Shown piece after piece: positions 1-55,621 of a DNA stretch of 64,000 nucleotides. The notes under the pieces are model-generated. The model made no database searches and was not told the origin of the DNA. It was given only the letters and a program-made list of their open reading frames with translations. Position 1 is the first letter of the stretch. Each line of letters starts with the position of its first letter. Source of the stretch: Trichoplax adhaerens (Eukaryota > Animalia > Placozoa); NCBI RefSeq assembly GCF_000150275.1, contig NW_002060943.1, positions 10,850,878-10,914,877 of the forward strand, given 5' to 3'. Position numbers and translations under genes: made by a program.

Positions 1-261
1 CTGGTAAAAATTTCTATTTCTTGCAATGATATCGAAAAGTGTATTGAAATCCGTCTGAATTTGCATAGCTTGATCTAGTAATTTTTGGGGAATTACAGTA
101 GGTAACAACGTCACCGGCAAGTGATGATATGAATGATCCCGATCATCATTTCGAATGGCTTTCATCAACAAGCCGTGGCAAGAGCACCAATCTCGAATTT
201 TTTGTACGATAGTTGATAGCTGGTCAGGTGTTAACTCATCCACTTTAGGTAGCGTTGCCAT
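1..261 (-). CDS. GSS: Glutathione synthetase paralog A, exon 1 (gene continues off the left edge)
   Basis: Manual translation from the ATG at 261: [85 protein letters not shown]. This is co-linear and highly similar to exon 1 of the complete GSS at 4680-4954 ([20 protein letters not shown]). Confidence 0.88.
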   Translation of the reverse strand, partial: MATLPKVDELTPDQLSTIVQKIRDWCSCHGLLMKAIRNDDRDHSYHHLPVTLLPTVIPQKLLDQAMQIQTDFNTLFDIIARNRNFYQ

Positions 262-1472: not shown

Positions 1473-4400
1473 TCAAACTAAATACACTGAATCTAACCCT
1501 GCCGCTCCAATTCCCACTCCACCTTCATTTTGGCTAATACTTTTAGTTCGTAATAGATATCCACAAGCACAATTACTAATTACTTCATTCGGTCCACGGC
1601 TAAAACGGTTAAACAATAATTATGATTTAGATAAAAAGTTATAAATCGATAAGTGTAAGAAACAATCTTGCTTTCAAGATATTTTAAGTAGTAGTGTCTT
1701 GCACTCGCTATCGGATTAAAAATAACGCTATCCTATTTTTCCTATGACAATTTAAATAGCTATTTATTATGGACATATTTATGGCACACTATTAATGTAC
1801 ACTTCGGTAACATATTACCTGATGAGAACTCCATATATTCCTAATTCACTGATAACTTTTTCAGTACCCTGAATTGAATTATTTGTAGTGATGATACAAT
1901 TATCAACTGCTGGAGGAAATATTCTATCCATGAGAATGTAAGCTGACTTTTCATCGTCATTTGATGATGAACTTAGAAAAGTCCGTATTTCTTCCCCGAA
2001 CAGGTTATTCCCTATCAGAAGAGATCAGGTCTATATTATGTCGTTATTTTCTTAATATATCAACAACGTAACATAGTACAGTTACTAGCAAACTTTCTTA
2101 ACTCACTATCAATTTTCGTGGAGCATACGTACAGGAATAATACTTACCTCCACCCTCACGTGGGGGTTTTAAAACAAAATTTTCCGGATTTTTAATGGCC
2201 ATGGCTATTGACTCTTTACCTTGGTCACCCTGAAGATATTTTACATGAAATTAAAATTTTTAAGACAGAAACTAAAAATACCTTCAAGTTACCTCATGTT
2301 AAATTAATAAAGGCTATCATAATACAAGCTACGTAGATATTTTCCGTTTAGTCTATTTCTATTAGCAAGACAGTTCCGTACAACTGTATTAGAATAGTGT
2401 AATTCTATTATATCGTTATCATATCTTAAAAAGCTAAGGCATGAAATGCTACATGATATGCATATAATCTTCTTCTACTTAACTACATTATCATAACCAT
2501 TAGTTAATCGAGACTGTAGTATTACCTCTAGTGAGTATAAGCCGGTAAACGTCGCTCTTATCCTTTCTACGGAACTCTTATCTGGTAACAATCTGAAGTA
2601 TATAATTGTATAATTTGTTTTTAACATTTCCGACATAACGTCTATTTATTGGTACAGTATGCGTACTAATTAAATTTACTATATATCAGATATTTTAACT
2701 CACGATTCTAAAACACCTGGTGTAGATAGTACTTGCTGTATCTTTTTAACTCCGGCTAAATGACTTGCAATATTTGGAACTTTGATACTACGTGATCTCT
2801 CGGCTAACAATAGAGCGTCCCATTCCTGCAAATTAATAGAACATCTATAACATTAATTGATCAAATTGACATTTTTCTATAAATTGGCAAGGTATACCTT
2901 TTGGCTAGGGTAGCAATATGGTGCGTAAGCGGAACGGTAGTAGACCAATGCAACTTCTTGTTTCTTGCTATATTTTAACATAACATAGTTATAATTGTAA
3001 ATAAACTTCCTGAAACGTAATACTGAAATGACATTGTTCTAGAATCCTATAAATGTGAAATACATACGAATCAACTTACTAGTATAAGGTCTTATCATCT
3101 CCTAATGTAGCGTTTTCTTCAATATCAGCCATTGTACAACGAACAACATTAATTGAAGGATCTCTGAAGAAAATGTAATCGGATGCTAACTCAATTGATG
3201 TCATTTAATATTACTCTTTTACAATGTACGAGCATGTTAGAAATGAAGTGAGATGCAGCATGGCAACAGACTTACAATTTCATGATTGCATATTCAAACA
3301 GCCGTTGATCACAAATATTATTTTCATCAGGTAGAACCACAAACAAAATAATAGCCCTAGGATATTAGTATGATAAGTAAGTAATTCATAATGTTGTTAA
3401 TATTTTTAACATTACAAAGAGTACACAATATCTACAACGAGAATATCTTGTAATCCTTGATCTCTCTTTACTAACTTACTTATCATTTTCATACATTTTC
3501 CAAGCTAGATGCACTCCCTTAGCAAATGGCTCTAAACAGTTATTAGTAGCAATCTAGAAAATTTCATTTAACTACTTAGATATTAAAGTCTACTTAAAAG
3601 GCAGAATGCTATAGGTATTTTCCTAAATTTATCAATTTCATAATTATGTGTAGTACCCGTTCTAAATTGTAATCGTCAGTCAAACCCAATTCCCGTATAA
3701 CGTATCTGAAAGGTTAATATTTAGTGCAGTTTAATAGAATGTTGAGCATATATCGTATCACTAGGTGATCAGGTAATAACCTCAATATAAACGTCAATTT
3801 GTACTTAGTTATTATCATGAAAGTCAGTTGCTCGATGTACTGTACTACTACTAACCGATGGAGTGACGGTACGACAGAAGAACTTCCAATGAAACCAACG
3901 GAAACAGTATTAAATTCAACTTGTTTTAAGCTTAACTGGTTATTACTGTTGCTTTGATCCAGCATGTAGTCTGATCGGGTGAGCATAAAATTGATTGGCT
4001 AAGAGTATAAATAACTAATTAATTATACGACTAGGTTGTTTTCGCTCATCATATCATAGAACCATATCTAGCTCGAAGACACATCGTTTGATTAAGTAAT
4101 AAAAGTACAGTTCATATTGATTCACTTTTATCGCAACAACTTATTGAAGCTCTTCTTAACTATATCCTAACTGACTTGAGCAATTCCTTCTTTCAGGACT
4201 TGATTGTAGACATACATTAATTTTGAAGCGTATTCATCGTCCTGTAACGATCTAAAGGCACATAAATTATCGTTCAATTATATCATTAATTATTAATTAT
4301 TTCAAGGTACGTAGTTTGATCATCATTGATGTTTTGATAATAGGATAAAAATAAGCGTCTTGCATTTTATACCGAATCGATATTGCATGGAAAAGTAATT

Positions 4401-4954
4401 TATTTTAATAATTGCAGTATGATCATAATACAGTATTCAATTTAAGTAATATTTATAAGCTGCGATTGCTAGTATGTACAGATCTCCTACAAGAGAATAC
4501 AGTAGAGTACGCGTAGGCGAGTAGGTACTCTATGCTCTCTTCGTCTAAGTAGCAATGAACTAGTAGCATCTCGATAGTGTATGATAAAATGAATTCTACC
4601 ATTGAGCGTGACTAGTAACTACTATCATACATATGGCATCGATCTGCCATCCAGTCGATGATGGCTAGTGCTACTTTACCGCTTCAAATTTTCAGATAAG
4701 AAACTTGTCTTTCTTGTGATGATATCGAAAACTGTATTGAAATCCATCTGAACTTGCATAGCTTGATCAAATAATATCTTTGGAATTGGAGTAGGTAACA
4801 ATGTCACTGGCAAATGATGAAATGAATAATCATGAGGATCATTTCGCTTGGATTTCATTAACAAGCCGTGGCACGAGCACCAATCTCGAATTTTCGGTGA
4901 GATGGTTGATAGCTGGCTAGGCGTTAATTTATTCGTTTGAGGTAGCGTAGCCAT
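1473..4954 (-). CDS. GSS: Eukaryotic glutathione synthetase (ATP-grasp) paralog B, multi-exon, complete
   Basis: Exon 1 is 4954-4680. Later exons read [67 protein letters not shown] and [10 protein letters not shown]. The last exon (about 1599-1473) reads [29 protein letters not shown]. The junctions I checked are GT-AG and phase-compatible. Confidence 0.95.
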
Positions 4955-5071
4955 TTGGTCCTGTATTGCAAAATTTTTGTTATGAAGTTATGATCACTAA
5001 TTCTAACAGTAGTAAATGGAGCGGAAGAGGTCCTTGTCCAACCACTCGATCGTTGCGGGCTGCCGGTTGCA

Positions 5072-5527
5072 ACAGTACAGTACTGTACTGTACAGTACAG
5101 TATTGCGAGAATTGTTCTACATGTACTGTGGGCCACTACTGTGGTATTAGAAAAAGAGAGGGAGTGGCTATTGGGGGAAAGCTTCTGTCTGTCTTGTCTG
5201 TTTCCAGAGTTGAACATGGTATGTACTGTAGTACTGTACAGTACTGTACTGTACAGTACAGTACAGTATTGCGAGAATTGTTCTACTGTACTGTACTGTA
5301 CATGTACTGTACTCTTTTTCTAATACCCCAGACCACAGTACTGTACAGTACTGTACAGTACTGTGAGGTACTGTGGTCTGTGGTATTAGAAAAAGAGAGG
5401 GAGTAGCTATTGGGGGAAAGCTTCTGTCTGTCTTGTCTGTTTCCAGAGTTGAACATTGTATGTACTGTACAGTACACATTACAATAGCATAGTAATAACA
5501 GTACTGTACAGTGTACAGTACAGTATA
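5072..5527. repeat. (CAGTA/TACTG)n palindromic array with a ~240-bp tandem duplication and an internal inverted repeat, upstream of GSS paralog B
   Basis: Dense tacagta/tactgta runs. The block gtggtattagaaaaagagagggag...ccagagttgaacat occurs at about 5141-5217 and 5380-5456. 5312-5340 is the near-perfect reverse complement of 5369-5397. Confidence 0.9.
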
Positions 5528-5956
5528 TCAAAATTGACGTTACTCATGCTACAAAATATTAGTTACATAATGCCTAAAGGCTAATAAAGGGAGCTGACAA
5601 TCGTGCTGGGGCAAAAATAGGATATTCCTGCCTGCAAGGACTACAGTACAGCACGTACGTACCCCTTAAACGTTTTCCTGCGCAGAAGCACAGATTCTTT
5701 TTTCTAAAAAATCGCCATTTCTCCTTCTTTCTCCAAGAAGAAATGGCGTTCCTGCACGAAATCGGTGTTCACTCGTACCTTCACCGAGCTGCACACGTCA
5801 CATACGGATACTAAAGCTTATACTGTACTCAGTGTAATGCTGTCATCTAGAGTTAAGCGTGCACTCAGTTGCACGGTACAGTTTCTGTAGTTGTCCCTGC
5901 TGTACAAAGTACAGTATGTGCTGTCTGTATGAGTGAGTCACGTGACTGTGCTACAA

Positions 5957-6025
5957 TACAGTGGAGGTCTCTACTGTACTGTACTGTACAGTACACTGTA
6001 CAGTACAGTAGAGACCTCCACTGTA
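5957..6025. repeat. Perfect 28-bp inverted repeat within a CAGTA array
   Basis: tacagtggaggtctctactgtactgtac (5957-5984) pairs with gtacagtacagtagagacctccactgta (5998-6025). Confidence 0.9.
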
Positions 6026-6370
6026 CTGTATTGTACAGTACAGTGTACAGTATAGTATGATGACTGGCATAAAATTTGATCGAACAGTGGCGTATTGAAC
6101 GCTAATCACCCTACTTTAAAAAGGTCACTAGCCATAGTTTATACTTAATAGTAATTATTATTGTTTTCCTATGAAACTCTTACTATTAGTAATTTACGGC
6201 TGTTATCACGCAATATTTCAACTTGAATGACCTTTCCCCTATTGCGAACTTGCGATAACCCTTTGCTAGATTGACAGTACTGTACTGTACTGTACACTGT
6301 ACAGTACTATGTCCAGATCCAATTTTTTGCTGACAGCATCCGGAGGCTTCATGAAAAGAACTTGTAATAA

Positions 6371-6691
6371 ATGACTCAAAAGACGAATCTCGTGACTGCT
6401 AGTGTTTGAGGAGTATGCGCATGCCTTGTTGGTAGTAAAGTAAAGTAAAAGGCGTCTTTGGTTGACCTGGACCGTCACTACGTGCTACGTACCGTGCCGT
6501 TTCATCATCTTGCTAGTACGATTGAGTAATCAATGACTCAAATGACGAATCTCGTGACTGTTTTTAGTGGGTGAGGAGTATGCGCATGCCTTGTTGGTAG
6601 TAAAGTAAAAGGCGTCTTTGGTTGACCTGGACGTAGTACGTAACTACGTACCGTGCCGTTTCATCATCATCTTGCTAGTACGATTGAGTAA
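6371..6691. repeat. 162-bp tandem duplication in the proximal promoter of the SLC52 gene
   Basis: Copies at 6371-6529 and 6533-6691 are near identical. Each contains TGACTCA, TCTCGTGA and TGCGCATGCC. Confidence 0.92.
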
Positions 6692-6805: not shown

Positions 6806-9800
6806 ATGGTTTCTGTCACACTTTTGGAGAAAAATACATCATGGACAGTTTGTTTTTTAGCAGTATGCTTTGGCATCGGTTCGTGGGTTGCAACCAACAG
6901 TATTTGGGTAGAATTGCCAATCATGGTCAATTGTTTACCGGAAAGTTGGAACTTGGCCTCCTACATAACAGTCATCATCCAAATCGCTAATCTAGCTCCT
7001 TTAACGTATTCTCTGTTAAAGCATTGGAAACCTAACGTAGTGAAAGAAGTGCCAGCAATCTATGTAGTATTAGTGACTGGAACTGCTTCTTGTCTATTAC
7101 TAGCTTTTTTTTGGCGTTCAATTGCAATAGTTGGTGGTGAACCACATAGTATTGGACTGTTAATCCTTGGTTTTACCCTGGCCATGACTGATTGCACTTC
7201 ATCGGTGACATATTTACCATTTATGGCCACTTTTCGCGAAGTATACATGCCTGCTTACTTAGTTGGTGAAGGACTTAGTGGTTTATTGCCTGGGTTAGTT
7301 GCACTTGGTCAGGGAGCTAGAAATGGGGCTGGTTGTTTTAATCAAAATATTTCTGTCGCTACCGTTGCAACAACTATGCATCCCACTACTGGCCCCTCAA
7401 TAACTACAGCAGGTTAGTCATGATGTACTGGATATTTTATCCTTCAGTCTTGTGTTTGAAAATTAAAAATTCCATATCCTGTGCGGTATTGTCTTAGGTC
7501 AAGTACGACGTAAATCAAACTATGTTTCACCTCTGTTGATCGATGGAAGATAGATCTTCATATTGAACATCCTAGCTTACAATGACAGGAGTACTGTAGT
7601 GAGGCAGTTTTGCCGATTAATGAATAGTCTTTTTATATGCGTCACTAACGATTAATTGTTCACTATTTTCAAGCCCCACGGGCCCCTCGTACTCCATTCT
7701 ATCCTGATAAATGCCGTACAACCACATTAATGCAAAGCTTGGATCGATGCGATTGCAACGCAAATAGTAACATTTTCCATATAAAAATGGACCGTAACTG
7801 AATGCGGTTACTTGTAGTGTCTATATTTACTCCCATCATAAAGTATTGATGAAATTTACAAGTTTTTTGATGAACATCCTTGTTGTAAATTGTCCATCCC
7901 CGACTATAGAACGTACTCACACTGTGGTAGTAATCCATGCTCGCTACGGTACTACTTAACTTAATGCTTACCTATCGACACGTTCGGCAATGCTATAAAG
8001 CACGCGACAAAAACTTCAACAACGCGACGTAGGAATAGCGTCTGTTTAAATTCCTCCTGCTGGGCAGATGCACAATTCATTTTCTCTGCACATTATACGC
8101 TGTATGGACGTATACATACGGTAGAATTGCGATATCATGCCATAAGAAACAGACTCTACGCGGATTCATGAAATAACATCAAAGGGTAGTAGACACAATT
8201 TTTCACAGAGATCAAATTGGGTAGATTCAATTAGTCATTGAACACCAGATGACTAAGAACATTGACGCCACGCGGATTCATTAAAAGAAACATCAAAGGT
8301 TGTACTTAAATGGAAGATTTATGTCCATTAAACACCTGATGACTAGCTACAGTACCACAGTTGCAAGCGCAATAGCGTATTGATTGACATACCGAGCATA
8401 CTTTGTTTTGTTCGGTTTGTTAATTAGAATATATATTTAATTATTGTCAAGTAAAAGGTACAACTTAGCAGTACGTGAAGGATCACGAGGAAGGGCTTGA
8501 CTAGTACTTTATTAATGTGCACTGTGTGTACAGTAGAGTGAAAGATAAAATTACAATATGATCAAAGACTCCTTCAGTGAGTTTCAATCAAATCGAATAT
8601 ACGGTTAAAAAATTACGCTCAAGTTGTTAAGACCATCCGCTTCTATTGCGCATTATGTTATTATAAGCTATTTATTTACTTTTTTATTCCATACTACTGT
8701 TTATTATTCCTTGCAATAATTTCTACATATGCATAACGAATCATGTCTAATAGTAATTTATATATGGGAATGATTTTGTAAAATACTAGCGACATTAAGT
8801 TTACGCACGCTTCAACCTTATTGAATTAGCAATCTATAATATAATTGACTATCATCCTGCATGATTGCTTCTAAATTTACGGCAATATGTTTATACAATC
8901 AGCATGATTGGAAAGATTGTTAACGATAATATAGCAAAGTACGAGTATTTACATACACTGCTTGATCAAAGTCCTCGTCTCTACCCATTGCCCAAAAAAG
9001 TGCCCATGTTTATGATATCGCCGACAAGCTTTTGTTAATTAATGTATTATAATTATATATTGAATATACGACGTTGTTGCCCAAGTTATAAGTCTTATTT
9101 GAATCTATTAATTTAATAAATGGATAAACAGCATTAATATTAGATATTGCCATGATAACCGCCGCGTCGGCAACACTGAACTTTTAAAGGCTACGCACAT
9201 GCAGGATATATTACTATGTTGATGAGATTGAAATCCGTAAACTAATGAATGAATGGGCGATATTGATATTCGATATTGCCAACATGACCGCCTAGTCAAC
9301 AATACTAAGCATTCTTTGTGAACTTATTAAGTCTATCTACATACAAAACACGATCACGAGACATGGACTACTAGAAACCCACATATACTAGATACGTATA
9401 TTAATTGTAATTATAGTGTTATATGTACCTTGCAGCTGTAATTAAAACCGTATTTTAGGAGAAGGTTTAATACTGAAATAATGACACTGATAGAACTTCT
9501 CTATTTACTATACTCAGTGTACTGTAATCTACTGATGGTATACTCTATGCGTCAAGAATGAATATTGATTATCTCCTAATAACGCGAGTATTATGAGTGA
9601 AGAGTGTGCTAGTAATTATTATTATATCCACTCTTTAGCAACAGTACACCATAGAAATCATGCTATATATAATCCTGAACTTTTCCTCTATTAACTGTAA
9701 ATTTAATATTTTATTCTATTTACTTCCTTCACTCTGATAGCCACTCAAGCAACCCCGCCTCAGAATTTAACCTTATGCGAACAAACACTTCGTTCCGTTA

Positions 9801-10946
9801 GTTTCACACCAGAAACATTTTGGTTTATTTTATTTGGATTAACTATTGCATCTGCTTTGGCTTTTATCGCTATGAATTATCTTCCTTTAGCGAAGAAGCA
9901 CTACGTCATTCCTAATACGTATGAAAAAACTGAAGATAATAAAATAGACGGTAGTGAATTAGCTTGCAATAATAAATCGGGTTGTCGTGATGAAGCTGCT
10001 TCGGATATGGTGAGTATTCGAAATCCAATTTATGTACGACATTGTAGCTGTGTCACATCGTACGTAACAAGTACAACATTATAGAGAGTGGATATCCAGG
10101 TATAGTTCCATGACACTAAAATGACAATATTTTATCTTTTAGGAGAAAAAAAAAGACCCTCTTCCGTTCAAAGTATTTATGGCTTTATTATTTATGCAAG
10201 CGTGGGTCAACGGATTAAGTAATGGAGTCATCCCGTCCATTCAGTCGTACGCTACTTTACCTTATGGTGGTACTGCATTTCATCTAACTGTCACTTTATA
10301 CTCTATTGCTAATCCTTTAACTTCATTTGCCTACTTCTGGCTGCCCTGTTATAATCGTGTCGTAATTGCAATATTAACCCTACTTTCTACGGTTTGCGGC
10401 ATCGTGATTATCGTTTTTGCAGCTATGAGCCCATCGCCTCCCTTACTTGGCACAAGCGGTGGATCTGCCTTGACGGTAAGCATACAGAATATCTGTAGAT
10501 ATGCTTGTTCTGTGAAATGGGGAGTTTTACCCATAGTTACTGCTAGAATGCCCTTTCTTGACGAAAATTGCCACATTTAAATGAAGTAAAATTTGAATTA
10601 TCAATTCGTTATATTAAGCTTCATTCATCAAAACCTGGTGTCGTAATTAGTCCAGTTTATTTGTATTACGCTATTACAATAATAATTAGACACACACAAT
10701 GTCCAAGTAAATTAAACTCTCTCATGATGCTAACAACGCGTATTTTATCTAATAATGTAGGTTATAATAAATGTTGGTTTTGGCGTTTTGGTGACTTATG
10801 TTAAAGTTGCCATTATATATCTATTACGATTACAAGGCCGACGGGCTTTATTTTGGTGTGGCGTATCACAGCAAGTTGGATCTTGTATTGGAGCTTTGAT
10901 AATGTTTCCAATTGTTAGTATTTTTAGACTATTTCAGTCGTGTTAA
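6806..10946 (+). CDS. SLC52A: Riboflavin transporter, SLC52/RFVT family
   Basis: Family motifs FGIGSWVATNSIWVELP, LPESWNLASY, DCTSSVTYLPFM, GEGLSGLLP, NGVIPSIQSYATLPYG, ANPL and QQVGSCIGALIMFP. Exons are 6806-7412, 9741-10009, 10143-10475 and 10761-10946, in compatible phases. Confidence 0.95.
8158..8350. repeat. Diverged ~112-bp tandem duplication in SLC52 intron 1
   Basis: cgcggattcat..aacatcaaagg and catt.aacacc.gatgacta each occur twice. Confidence 0.6.
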
Positions 10947-21098: not shown

Positions 21099-28007
<6,909 letters not shown>

Positions 28008-28503
28008 ATTACAGATCAATACTACAGTATTATGCACTCGATTGGTCTAGATTAAGACAAAGAACACTATCTCTAGCTAATGCAAGAGAGGAAATAACGA
28101 CAAATTGGAGTATCGATTGAATAAAGCAGAAAAAGAGTTAGCCAAGACGATCCAAGATCATCAATCTATCGTCGAGACATGATTCGATTAACTAGCATCC
28201 ACCAACTTGTCTATCTATTCGTCTCCACCAATACCAATGCAGTAAGTAAATCCTCTACTATTCTACACTATAAATCAATCCTTTTCTTCCTTTGAACGCT
28301 GAATTTTACAGCATACAGCAGTAAATGCTGCCAATGGATCCAAGATATCAACAAGGATAGAGCGAATTTTCTCCCTTTAAGTGTCTTGATCCACAAACGA
28401 TTGTCAATGACGAGAGGGCGATGAATGGTCTTGGTGTTTTACTTAGCAGCTGAGCTGAGACGTGTCATATCGCCCGTCGAGTCTACAATACTATCCGTAT
28501 TGC

Positions 28504-32814: not shown

Positions 32815-32864
32815 NNNNNNNNNNNNNNNNNNNNNNNNNNNNNNNNNNNNNNNNNNNNNNNNNN
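32815..32864. other. Assembly gap (50 N)
   Basis: Run of N. Confidence 1.
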
Positions 32865-34883: not shown

Positions 34884-35846
34884 ATGAATTTTTCCTCAGT
34901 TACGCCGACACCAGCTATCCATCTGCAGGTCCCCCTTATTATTCATATCATGTATGGTATTCTATCCAATATTGCAATAATCGGTAACTTATTAGTATTA
35001 ATAGTAAGTATTCATTCAAGATCGGTCATAAAAGGTCCTCTACATACTTTAATATTTTGCCTAGCAATTATGGATATGATGACAGGTATAGTCGCTTTTA
35101 TAACACCAGGTTTTGCTTTTGCTTATGATACATTCCCGTACCCAAATGGTACTGCTGGATTACTCTATTGCAGATTAATTGATTCAGAATATTTTTTCTT
35201 CTCCTTTGGATTTGTCTCTATTTACATCGTTTTACTTATAAGCCTTGAACGATGGTGTGCGATTGCTAAACCATGGCGCTATCAAATTGTTTTTTCAGTC
35301 AAAAATTGTAGAATAACCGTTTTAATTATAGTTGTACTACAATTATCGTTAACACTGGAAAATACGTTGAATATGAACCATAAAAGTGGAAATATACCAC
35401 CATGTATATGGGGCTCTATTTTCGCTGATGCATTAGCAAGAAATGTCTTTTTTATTGTTATGGAAACTATACGCTTATTTATACCAGTATGTATAATTGT
35501 ATTGTGTTATCTTGATATTGCTCGACGACTACTCTCTAGAGCTAAAATCGGTCATACAGAAAACACTATCAAAGCAGCAGCACGTCGGCGTGCAACAGTT
35601 ATGGCATTTTCAGCTTCAATAATGTTGATTATATGTTGGCTGCCCAATGAATTATATTTTACACTTTATCAATTCAAAGTCATTGACCTAGATGAAATCT
35701 TACATAAGACATTTAAAATACTCATTATATTCAATTCTAGTATTAATCCATTCGTTTATGCTTCTACAAATGAATTATATCGCAATGGCCTCTTTAAATT
35801 ATTTGCCTATTCAAGATGGCGCTGTTATAGCAGTTCCAAAGCTTAA
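34884..35846 (+). CDS. Intronless class A (rhodopsin-like) GPCR, peptide-receptor-like orphan
   Basis: Seven hydrophobic segments with GN (TM1), LAIMD (TM2), C...SLERW (TM3), CWLP (TM6) and NPFVY (TM7). The first ATG is at 34884 (MNFS, an N-glycosylation sequon); the ORF track's start at 34758 is a GTG. Confidence 0.93.
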   Translation: MNFSSVTPTPAIHLQVPLIIHIMYGILSNIAIIGNLLVLIVSIHSRSVIKGPLHTLIFCLAIMDMMTGIVAFITPGFAFAYDTFPYPNGTAGLLYCRLIDSEYFFFSFGFVSIYIVLLISLERWCAIAKPWRYQIVFSVKNCRITVLIIVVLQLSLTLENTLNMNHKSGNIPPCIWGSIFADALARNVFFIVMETIRLFIPVCIIVLCYLDIARRLLSRAKIGHTENTIKAAARRRATVMAFSASIMLIICWLPNELYFTLYQFKVIDLDEILHKTFKILIIFNSSINPFVYASTNELYRNGLFKLFAYSRWRCYSSSKA

Positions 35847-53700: not shown

Positions 53701-55529
53701 AGTAGAAAGTTTCTCACCTACATATAAGTATGATCATACACTGTGAATAGCTAGTGCAAATTCGACTAGTTCTAAATAATGATAGTAATGATGTCTTGCA
53801 GTAAAGCTATGTATATATATAACATATATATATATATGTAAGATAAAAAAGATTAATATTTTTATGGTTGCACAAAACAGCAATAATTCGGTCATAAAGT
53901 ACATTACTCCAAGTAAGTGCAAACCTATTTTTATAGCAATCTGAGGTATATCACGGTTGATTTGCTCCATGACATCTTGTATTGTCATGGTACTGCTATA
54001 TTCACAAGGTTTCCGGGCCTCATAGGAGCTACAACAATCCTATTCAAAATCAAAGAAACGACTTTCAATATAATGTGCTACCTTTGAAAAGATTGTTCGA
54101 CACAATTGTAATATTCAATCACATACAACCTTAAGAGCATCACGTAATCCATCAGGGTTTAAATGGAAAGCTGCTACAACTTCATAGTTATCGTTAAAAG
54201 AGTCAAGTCTTTGTCGATATAGCTGCGAATAGTTGTTAAAATTGATTGTAAGTCTGACTATTGTTAGAATGTTGTCCTTTATCCTCAACGTACAACATGC
54301 AGTAAGACATGTATTTGCAATTATTTATTCACGAAATAATAACAGTAACATCTATCCATGTACGCGTTGTAATAATAGTATTATATTTCAATATACCTTG
54401 AGTAAGTTATCTAATTTTTGACTCAATTCCTCGCTCTTCTCCGCAGTTAATTCTCCTCCGCTTAATCCTCCGGATAAGTACTCCAGATCGTTGATGTTTA
54501 ATCCATATCCGTTGCGCAAGTTGCTAGTTAGCTACAATATACATTTTAAAAATACTCTTTATTATAATGTGAGATTACTCTTGCTACTATTTTACTATAT
54601 TGCGTACAGTATAGCAACTAGTCGTGAGAAAGTAGATAGCTAGTGATATCGCAATATTGAACTGGTCCTACGATAAAAATTTTAAAGACGATGAGAGGCT
54701 GATTTCACCTTAATGACGTTAAACCATTCCTTGGTAGCATCTTTTACAGCAGTTGATAGAACGCTACTTCTAATAATTTCCCCAACCGAATCATGATTAT
54801 CTAACGCTTTGTGGGCTTTGGCAGTAGTCTGAAATGCTTTTGACTCGATATCGATTAATGAGAGGAAAGCTGCTCCAAGTTTCTATCGGGGATCAATCAA
54901 CATAAAAGCGATATGAATGGCAATCAATACAATGAATTAGTTGGTCATCTATAATCGCATCAAATAATTGAAGAAGTTAATGTTATTCTAACTTGAACAC
55001 GGTATTCTAGCATACTACTCATAATGCTAGCCAATTTATTATCTTCCATAGCAAATTCCTTGGAGGCTGACTGTAGTTTCACTTGGGTCATTTGATATCG
55101 ATTGGATCCATCACCACTATTTTCGCATTTCTGTAATTTTTCACGATAATTTTCATACGTTTCAAAGCTCTTTTTATGTGCATCAATTGCTTTCTTAGCT
55201 GTTGGGAAAAGGGAATTAAATTGATCTACTGTAGCAACAACATTTTGTGATAGTCTGACAACACATTTGTCAACGACTTCTTTAATTTCATTCATTGTGT
55301 TGGTATGTTTAAAAGTAGCTTCCCATAATGGTGTTTCTTTAAAAACTGACGTAAAAGCTTCGGCTAGGAGTAGTCCAGCGTTGCTCATCTTTGTTAATAT
55401 TTGCGAATAAGAAGTTAATGCTTGCTGTAAATTTAATACATCACCCTCTAAATTCTCGACTTGAGCTAGTAGTCCACTATGGTAGTCTAATTTACCCATG
55501 CTTTTAGTACGTCGCTTTATTGAAGCCAT
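50752..55529 (-). CDS. Multi-exon protein with an N-terminal BAR-like helical domain, an unidentified central domain and a long disordered C-terminus
   Basis: Exon 1 (55529-54993) is BAR-like (QVENLEGDVLNLQQALTSYSQIL...LLAEAF...VDQFNSLFPTAKKAIDAHKKSFETYENYREKLQK...QVKLQSASKEF). About 16 further phase-compatible GT-AG exons follow down to about 50855. The 3' end crosses the N gap, so the stop near 50752-50759 is uncertain. Confidence 0.8.
50796..50845. other. Assembly gap (50 N)
   Basis: Run of N. Confidence 1.
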
Positions 55530-55621
55530 GAATTTCCCTTTACACCTTTTCAACCGATTGAACTATCGATAATAATAATAATATATGAGAATAAATGCTG
55601 AGATCGAAAACGTTTGCCCGG

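What the first reader, a model, noticed from the sequence alone, without database searches (positions are those of the whole stretch)
1473..4954. Glutathione synthetase paralog with intact catalytic core but rewired substrate loops: candidate synthetase of a non-canonical glutathione-like peptide
Seen: ATP/Mg and catalytic motifs are intact (RSDY, E-x-N in KQVEFNT, K in GVKK, KPxREGGGNN, SELG, LRTK), but every substrate-contacting loop departs from consensus. The A-loop is EGGVGIG rather than GGVAAG. The H-loop is TVSVGFIG rather than TISASFGG. The S-loop is [10 protein letters not shown] rather than FR(A/D)GYxPxxY. The gamma-glutamyl segment is VVLPDENN rather than VVQxxERN. The G-loop is KPPRE rather than KPQRE. 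Established: in legume homoglutathione synthetase, replacing the A-loop Ala-Ala pair with Leu-Pro switches the acceptor from glycine to beta-alanine. Inference: this duplicate may ligate a different acceptor amino acid and/or a different gamma-glutamyl dipeptide, giving an undescribed thiol or gamma-glutamyl peptide pathway in an early-branching animal.
Basis: partly seen in the sequence, partly recalled or inferred. Interest (0 to 1): 0.8.

Follow-up and report, generated by a model that had tools for sequence, protein, structure and literature searches.

The report
Trichoplax tandem glutathione synthetase pair
This is an intact, expressed gene, one of two side-by-side copies of the glutathione-making enzyme in the simple animal Trichoplax; both copies share most of the odd loop changes and this one keeps nearly every residue that grips the normal substrate, so it likely still makes ordinary glutathione, though one unique change at the glycine pocket is worth an enzyme assay.

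Summary
The motifs are all there, in an intact 13-exon, 480-aa gene whose 12 introns are spliced in RNA runs. A second copy starts at window 261; DNA depth indicates two copies. Both carry KPPRE, RSAY, Ser151Gly and Gly at human Ala462, so this is not a rewired spare beside a canonical copy. A published four-placozoan table places all Trichoplax GSS models in the one orthogroup shared by all four species. 'Every loop rewired' is overstated. R125, S149, F152, E214, N216, Q220, R267, Y270 and R450 are kept. The Ala-Ala pair occurs in only 53 of 139 diverse homologues, and 15 of 139 have more deviant loops. Assayed enzymes lacking Ala-Ala still prefer glycine (fission yeast, a nematode clade-2 enzyme). 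Genuinely rare: A462G (0 of 145, 0 of 118) and Q366P (1 of 148, 0 of 118). Best reading (about 0.7): a lineage-diverged housekeeping glutathione synthetase, tandemly duplicated and partly homogenised. A widened or changed acceptor remains possible (about 0.2). No assay exists, and I could not scan the genome for a third copy.

The parts
1473..4954 (-). GSS copy A, whole gene: 13 exons, 480 aa, eukaryotic glutathione synthetase
   Evidence: Pfam PF03917 and PF03199 far above cut-off for the database models P0001/P0002
4680..4954 (-). exon 1 (ATG at 4954); 92 of 92 aa identical to the Trichoplax sp. H2 protein P0001
4176..4251 (-). exon 2
3856..3998 (-). exon 3: R125/D127 (3966-3977), E144/N146 equivalents, H-loop TVSVGFIG (3885-3908; Ser151->Gly, Gly153->Ile)
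3657..3705 (-). exon 4
3480..3553 (-). exon 5
3276..3356 (-). exon 6: gamma-glutamyl segment; E214, N216, Q220 equivalents kept, Gln211->Leu
3080..3163 (-). exon 7 (within the tract nearly identical between the two copies)
2898..2967 (-). exon 8: S-loop (2910-2939); R267, Y270, P272, Y275 kept, Gly269->Ala; identical in both copies
2704..2825 (-). exon 9: Arg283->Leu, K305 kept; identical in both copies
2526..2592 (-). exon 10
2148..2229 (-). exon 11: G-loop KPPREGG; K364, E368, G369, G370 kept, Gln366->Pro (2161-2163)
1819..2011 (-). exon 12: G371-NN, M398, I401, E425 equivalents
1473..1599 (-). exon 13: R450, K452 kept; A-loop EGGVGIG (1506-1526), Ala462->Gly, Ala463->Ile; stop codon
1..261 (-). 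exon 1 of tandem GSS copy B (ATG at 261; gene continues left of the window); 82% nucleotide identity to copy A over 84 codons; matches database protein P0002
   Evidence: transcript contig in run X18; DNA contigs continue from here into further GSS exons
2500..3225 (.). tract (exons 7-10 and their introns) so alike in A and B that short-read contigs collapse it at about twice the single-copy depth; gene conversion inferred
   Evidence: collapsed vs unique depth 69 vs 35-40, 67 vs 38-41, 125 vs 60-65, 49 vs 30-32 in 4 of 4 DNA runs

Best explanation
Copy A is an intact, spliced, tandemly duplicated eukaryotic glutathione synthetase that likely still joins gamma-glutamyl-cysteine to glycine with ATP, its loop changes being mostly inherited from the Trichoplax ancestor of both copies rather than marking a new pathway. 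Mechanism, inferred from the family: two Mg ions and ATP held by E144, N146, K305, K364, E368, E425 and K452 equivalents phosphorylate the cysteinyl carboxylate, which R125 positions. The gamma-glutamyl end is held by R267, E214, N216, Q220 and Y270. The G-loop glycines and the A-loop close over the site, and R450 plus the main-chain amides at 461-462 orient glycine for attack on the acyl phosphate. Because the A-loop grips glycine through backbone amides, Ala462->Gly is predicted to change loop flexibility and kinetics more than product identity. Shown: gene structure, splicing, two copies, residue conservation, predicted fold. Inferred: activity, substrates, cytosolic location, gene conversion.
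For: Open frame and spliced RNA in two studies. All 9 scored contact positions and every catalytic or ATP residue checked are kept, apart from a conservative Lys400->Arg. The S-loop residues whose mutation cripples the human enzyme (R267, Y270, P272) are kept; D268 and Y275 mutants keep 36-65% activity (PMC6297838). The A-loop binds glycine through main-chain amides, and the T. brucei enzyme, crystallised with glutathione, has Met at 462 (PMC2845819). Fission-yeast GSH2 (Ala-Thr) is glycine-specific, and even Leu-Pro alone left it 8.6-fold glycine-preferring with no beta-alanine use (PMC3473041). [quoted passage not shown] Loop score is lower in 15 of 139 diverse homologues (residual z -1.4); 43 of 139 also have at least one private loop residue. 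Both copies share the rare changes. All Trichoplax GSS models fall in OG_6167, the only GSS orthogroup present in all four placozoans. Trichoplax has GCLC, GCLM, glutathione reductase, ChaC and GGCT. Its CblC binds glutathione with K 18.9 uM against 25 uM for human (PMC11910325). The AlphaFold model of P0001 (pLDDT 95.7) matches human GS 2HGS best, TM 0.94, rmsd 1.5 A. The N-terminus is not hydrophobic, so no signal peptide is apparent.
Against: Gly at 462 is in 0 of 145 and 0 of 118 homologues and lies at the known acceptor position. Gln366->Pro is in 1 of 148 and 0 of 118. With a 'seen in at most 5 others' threshold, copy A has 6 rare loop residues, and only 13 of 139 homologues have as many. 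The S-loop score is matched or undercut by only 8 of 139. Ser151 and Gln211, listed contacts, are changed. Gly269->Val cost the human enzyme 97% of its activity, and Y275 bonds to R283, which is Leu here. In fission yeast, A-loop changes alone did add serine use. Copy B's A-loop (GGIGVG) resembles the GGISVG of an inactive nematode GS-like protein. The homologues used as 'normal variation' are mostly unassayed and include paralogs. GCLC is also duplicated in Trichoplax. A versus B exon 1 gives dN/dS 0.55 over only 84 codons, which is relaxed for a housekeeping gene. The published T. adhaerens annotation lists one GSS where the DNA shows two, so a missed third copy is possible. No thiol measurement for Trichoplax was found. 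The fold was predicted for the chimeric P0001, not copy A itself, and cannot tell GS from homoglutathione synthetase (3KAL TM 0.93).
Confidence: 0.7

Rival explanations
1. Copy A, or both copies, keeps the gamma-Glu-Cys donor but has a widened or shifted acceptor pocket (Gly462 with Ile/Val463 and Pro366), and makes gamma-Glu-Cys-Ala, -Ser or -beta-Ala besides or instead of glutathione.
For: Gly462 is unique in both samples and Pro366 nearly so. These positions close over the acceptor. A-loop swaps added serine use in fission yeast. Soybean homoglutathione synthetase has Leu-Pro at the same pair. A and B differ at 461 and 463.
Against: The legume switch uses bulky Leu plus Pro, not Gly. 86 of 139 homologues lack Ala-Ala. 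Assayed non-AA enzymes remain glycine-preferring. No canonical copy is evident to supply glutathione, yet the downstream glutathione machinery looks ordinary.
Confidence: 0.18
2. Copy A prefers a different gamma-glutamyl dipeptide (non-cysteine second residue), fed by the second GCLC copy, giving an ophthalmate-like or other gamma-glutamyl tripeptide.
For: The H-loop beside the cysteinyl residue is changed and differs between copies (GFIG in A, GCAG in B). Gln211->Leu is specific to A. Two GCLC models exist in T. adhaerens and three in H2, against one each in Hoilungia and Cladtertia.
Against: R267, E214, N216, Q220, Y270, R125, S149 and F152 are all kept in A. The H-loop is among the most variable loops (24 of 139 score as low). 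Ordinary GS already accepts gamma-Glu-aminobutyrate (PMC6297838), so such a product would need no new enzyme. The GCLC sequences were not examined.
Confidence: 0.07
3. Copy A is a weakly active or decaying duplicate under relaxed selection, and copy B does the work.
For: dN/dS 0.55 in exon 1; longer end branch for A than B (0.15 vs 0.07); A-specific Leu211 and Ile153.
Against: Open frame, 12 correct introns, transcripts in three runs, and all catalytic residues kept. The rarest changes are shared with B.
Confidence: 0.05

Closest known systems
Eukaryotic glutathione synthetase (EC 6.3.2.3; human GSS, PDB 2HGS; Pfam PF03917 + PF03199)
   Same: Fold (TM 0.94, rmsd 1.5 A for the P0001 model), about 40-44% identity to animal GSS, all catalytic and Mg/ATP residues, 9 scored substrate contacts, G-loop glycine triad, acidic residue at 458.
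   Different: Ala462->Gly, Ala463->Ile, Gln366->Pro, Ser151->Gly, Gly153->Ile, Gln211->Leu, Gly269->Ala, Arg283->Leu; present as a tandem pair with a homogenised middle tract.
Legume homoglutathione synthetase (soybean, PDB 3KAJ/3KAK/3KAL)
   Same: Arose by tandem duplication (as stated in PMC3473041); altered pair at human 462-463; same fold (TM 0.93).
   Different: Leu-Pro there versus Gly-Ile (A) or Gly-Val (B). The legume enzyme sits beside a canonical GS, whereas both Trichoplax copies are altered. No activity data here.
Clade 3 GS-like effectors of plant-parasitic nematodes (PMC5919673)
   Same: Animal GS duplicates with intact ATP-grasp core and catalytic arginine; the A-loop of GSS22 is of the GGI-small-V-G type like copy B.
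   Different: They replace all six gamma-glutamate-binding side chains, gained signal peptides and lost canonical activity. Copy A keeps five of six, has no hydrophobic N-terminus and has one sister copy rather than dozens.
Nematode clade 2 GS (Gpa-GSS5) and fission-yeast GSH2
   Same: Non-Ala-Ala acceptor loop in an otherwise conserved pocket; the nearest functional analogues.
   Different: Both were assayed and prefer glycine. The S. pombe pair is Ala-Thr; I did not see the GSS5 residues (figure not held). Neither is known to me to have Gly at 462.

Membership tests
Eukaryotic glutathione synthetase | PF03917 and PF03199 domains; permuted ATP-grasp fold | tested here: met
   404 and 104 bits against cut-offs 25 and 21 for P0001 (91% identical to copy A); best structural match 2HGS
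Eukaryotic glutathione synthetase | Mg/ATP and catalytic residues D127, E144, N146, K305, K364, E368, G369-G371, E425, K452, R125, R450 | tested here: met
   All present in copy A (residue roles from PMC2845819 and bioRxiv 10.64898/2026.06.09.730884)
Eukaryotic glutathione synthetase | gamma-Glu-Cys pocket: R267, E214, N216, Q220, Y270, S149, F152, S151, Q211 | tested here: inconclusive
   7 of these 9 kept; S151->G (27 of 147 homologues share it) and Q211->L (6 of 148) changed
Eukaryotic glutathione synthetase | Glycine as preferred acceptor; makes glutathione | not testable with these tools
   Needs an enzyme assay; R450, G459-G460, V461, G464 kept, 462-463 changed
Homoglutathione synthetase | Leu-Pro at human 462-463 | tested here: not met
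   Gly-Ile in A, Gly-Val in B, Leu-Pro in 3KAJ
Homoglutathione synthetase | beta-alanine preference | not testable with these tools
   No assay
Nematode clade 3 GS-like effectors | All six gamma-glutamate side chains replaced | tested here: not met
   5 of 6 kept (mapping of the second Gln to human Q211 is my inference)
Nematode clade 3 GS-like effectors | Signal peptide for secretion | tested here: not met
   Highest 11-residue Kyte-Doolittle mean in the first 35 aa is 0.41; no dedicated predictor run

The most novel reading that the evidence does not exclude
The only glutathione synthetases of Trichoplax, both with Gly at the acceptor position and Pro in the G-loop, make a glutathione homologue (such as gamma-Glu-Cys-Ala or -Ser, or a non-cysteine gamma-glutamyl tripeptide from the duplicated GCLC). 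This would be an animal counterpart of plant homoglutathione, with the two copies dividing the substrates.
Probability: 0.2. Interest if true: 0.75.

Novelty: new member of a known kind. Interest (0 to 1): 0.3.

Why it matters
If the best reading holds, the value is modest. It is a natural test of how far the GS acceptor loop can drift (Gly462, Pro366) without losing glycine specificity. It also corrects public models: the H2 protein RDD41221.1 appears to be a chimera of the two copies, and the cited T. adhaerens annotation lists one gene where there are two. If the novel reading holds, a free-living animal would make a glutathione homologue, which in the papers I read is described only for plants (with unidentified thiols proposed for nematode effectors). 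Both the enzyme assay and the thiol profile are cheap, and glutathione levels in T. adhaerens were unreported as of PMC11910325.

Tried and rejected
Genome-wide search for a third GSS: no genome is held, the assembly index did not complete, and the JGI metagenome scan confirmed 0 of 78 pattern matches. Absence of a canonical copy therefore rests on protein searches (2 of 26 candidates; best 120 of 1977 shown; best 150 of 3333 shown; 2 of 33) and on a published table. No Hoilungia or Cladtertia sequence was obtained, so I do not know whether their OG_6167 genes share the rare residues.

Single-sequence AlphaFold of P0001 failed (pLDDT 34); the run with a 110-sequence alignment succeeded. The ligand-free model cannot address specificity. 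A first exon-boundary script crashed on two mis-set frames, and a first dN/dS script used the wrong start for copy B; both were redone.

Trees give A+B full support but no credible sister: the quick IQ-TREE run stood in for an unfinished careful search. In FastTree the nearest row, unnamed P0123, is 1.68 substitutions per site away, and copy A's root-to-tip rank is 51 of 161, so it is not an unusually long branch. P0288 proved canonical and unrelated.

Rejected: pseudogene (open frame, spliced), assembly artefact for the duplication (both copies in 4 of 4 DNA runs), and P0001 as a third gene (it is A up to about residue 190 and B-type afterwards). Look-ups of earlier scan findings gave nothing relevant. 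Supplements of PMC12013895 had no hits. No complex prediction was run, since glutathione cannot be given as a ligand.

Full report
Gene and organism. The minus strand at 4954-1473 carries a spliced gene. Exon 1 is 100% identical over 92 aa to a protein named glutathione synthetase of Trichoplax sp. H2 (P0001), so the window is from Trichoplax; I did not determine the strain. RNA contigs laid on the window skip 12 introns: 12 of 12 in runs X18 and X19, 11 of 12 in X20 and none in X17, which looks like DNA. X19 and X20 are one study and X18 another, and X18's RNA label is a guess. With those joints all introns are GT-AG and the CDS is 1443 nt, 480 aa, with no internal stop.

Two copies. A second GSS starts at 261 and leaves the window. 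In 4 of 4 DNA runs, contigs run from the window's left end into further GSS exons. The stretch 2500-3225 collapses into one contig at about 1.6 to 2 times single-copy depth, and exon 12 appears as two contigs of single depth each. That indicates two near copies, with exons 7-10 and their introns homogenised; gene conversion is my inference. A more distant paralog would not have mapped. Copy B is transcribed as well: X18 has a contig over 6-316, and B-type junctions occur in X18 and X20. P0002 matches B's N-terminal 349 aa. P0001 equals A in exons 1-4 (181 of 181 aa) and is B-type from about residue 190. Its C-terminal letters appear as the alternative sequence in DNA and RNA runs (loose ends and inserted letters), so I use it as B's C-terminus. 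Exon 1 of A versus B: 82% nucleotide identity, dN 0.17, dS 0.32, ratio 0.55 over 84 codons, no interval computed.

What the loops really show. Human numbering was taken through a rodent GSS in the alignment. Kept in A: R125, D127, M129, E144, N146, S149, F152, E214, N216, Q220, R267, Y270, P272, Y275, K305, K364, E368, G369-371, M398, I401, E425, R450, K452, acidic 458, V461, G464. Changed: S151G, G153I, Q211L, G269A, R283L, Q366P, K400R, A462G, A463I. B shares S151G, G269A, R283L, Q366P and A462G, and has S211, C152, A153, I461 and V463. Exons 11 and 13 differ between copies (22 of 27 and 33 of 42 identical), so the shared Pro366 and Gly462 most simply predate the duplication.

How unusual. 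Among the 118 best non-placozoan hits (vertebrate- and insect-rich), A462G, A463I, Q366P and G153I were each seen 0 times, G269A twice and S151G 17 times. Among 149 representatives of 50%-identity clusters the counts are A462G 0 of 145, Q366P 1 of 148, G153I 2 of 147, R283L 3 of 148, G269A 4 of 148, A463I 5 of 145, Q211L 6 of 148 and S151G 27 of 147. For the scores I dropped 10 of 149 rows that were incomplete. Of the remaining 139, 53 have Ala-Ala at 462-463, 15 have a lower leave-one-out loop score than A, and A's non-loop score is at the median (residual z -1.4). In addition, 43 have at least one private residue at 37 pocket positions, and 13 have as many rare residues as A at the loosest threshold. 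A's loops are thus in the deviant tenth but not an outlier. Named examples with similar loops: a Cryptococcus GSS cluster with RSAY and GGVAIG, and Sycon with GGVIIG. Caveat: these homologues were chosen by likeness to the query, are mostly unassayed and include paralogs.

What experiments on other enzymes say. PMC2845819 (results and conclusions read): the A-loop binds the glycyl carboxylate by main-chain amides, position 462 varies, and T. brucei has Met there. PMC6297838 (abstract through S-loop results read): R267, Y270 and P272 mutants lose most activity; D268 and Y275 mutants keep 36-65%; G269V loses 97%; Y275 bonds to R283. PMC3473041 (main text read): wild-type fission-yeast GSH2 has Ala-Thr and uses only glycine; Leu-Pro alone gave some serine use but stayed 8.6-fold glycine-preferring; beta-alanine use needed four changes. 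PMC5919673 (abstract, passages and one results part read; its supplementary figure and tables not seen, and they hold the actual residues): clade 2 GS prefers glycine despite lacking the pair, while effectors without activity replace all six glutamate-binding side chains. bioRxiv 10.64898/2026.06.09.730884 (passages): G369, G370 and D458 matter, and these are kept or conservatively changed here.

Is there a canonical copy? In the supplements of PMC10580291 (searched rows, and the first parts of files 3 and 4; the placozoan orthology sheet lies wholly inside the stored part), genes named glutathione synthetase number 1 in T. adhaerens and 3 models in H2, all in OG_6167. Hoilungia has 4 and Cladtertia 3, spread over OG_6167, OG_9176 and OG_9333. 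That OG_6167 holds copies A and B is my inference from their being the only H2 GSS models. The T. adhaerens gene sits in a module ('grey') that has no cell-type row in the annotation sheet, while the two extra Cladtertia genes share a dorsal-epithelium module with GCLC and GCLM. Trichoplax has GCLC (duplicated), GCLM, glutathione reductase, ChaC and GGCT. Its CblC uses glutathione with human-like affinity, and tissue levels were unreported (PMC11910325, passages). So at least one of A and B most likely makes glutathione, and both have Gly462 and Pro366. The weak point is that the annotation misses one of the two copies in T. adhaerens and I could not scan the genome.

Structure. AlphaFold2 on P0001 with 110 aligned sequences gave pLDDT 95.7. 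The best Foldseek match is human GS, TM 0.94, rmsd 1.5 A; soybean homoglutathione synthetase scores 0.93. This confirms an intact fold and says nothing about the acceptor.

Print. Searches for Trichoplax with glutathione synthetase (4 papers), with glutathione and placozoa (66 papers, 25 listed) and with metabolomics terms (4 papers) showed no study of this enzyme or of Trichoplax thiols. Apart from PMC11910325, I saw those only as listings, and the library lacks most subscription papers.

Verdict. A real, expressed, tandemly duplicated GSS with two residues rarely or never seen elsewhere at the acceptor site. It is most likely an ordinary glutathione synthetase that drifted in the Trichoplax line (0.7). 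An altered acceptor (0.18), an altered donor (0.07) or a weak duplicate (0.05) are the rivals. Interest 0.3: not the wholesale rewiring first described, but a cheap assay could still give a surprise.

Noticed in passing
P0001 (RDD41221.1): The public Trichoplax sp. H2 GSS model looks like a chimera: identical to copy A in exons 1-4 and of copy B type afterwards, one residue short at the junction.
   Followed up: partly
window 1-10: Copy B's exon 1 leaves the frame of P0002 at a T run right at the window's edge, and run contigs align only from position 6; possibly a one-base assembly error in the window.
   Followed up: partly
PMC10580291 supplement 4, OG_6741: Glutamate-cysteine ligase catalytic subunit has 2 models in T. 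adhaerens and 3 in H2 but 1 each in Hoilungia and Cladtertia, so both glutathione-synthesis steps may be duplicated in Trichoplax. Sequences not examined.
   Followed up: no
PMC10580291 supplements 3 and 4, OG_9176 and OG_9333: Hoilungia and Cladtertia have two further GSS orthogroups with no Trichoplax member; two Hoilungia copies fall in modules of the 'unknown_1' cell type, and two Cladtertia copies in a dorsal-epithelium module with GCLC and GCLM. A placozoan GSS expansion worth its own look.
   Followed up: no
P0035 and P0003 (Erpetoichthys calabaricus), P0074 (Babylonia), P0122 cluster (Acropora): Other animals have GSS-like proteins with parallel changes: the second reedfish protein has an SVG H-loop, Arg283->Leu and GGLMAG beside a canonical one.
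   Followed up: no
window 6806-10580 (+): SLC52 riboflavin-transporter gene head to head with GSS copy A (Pfam PF06237 on the first exon).
   Followed up: partly
window 5040-6320 and elsewhere: Dense short palindromic TACAGTAC-type repeats, with duplicated blocks near 5050-5470 and 6380-6690; high contig depth shows they are dispersed repeats.
   Followed up: no
window 34887-35843 (+), 62171 onward (+), 21099-28046 (-), 54960-55562 (-): Intronless rhodopsin-family GPCR and an RSE1/DDB1-type beta-propeller gene; by eye, a P-type Ca-ATPase-like gene and a coiled-coil/BAR-like exon (untested, labels recalled). Two 50-base N gaps at 32815 and 50796.
   Followed up: no
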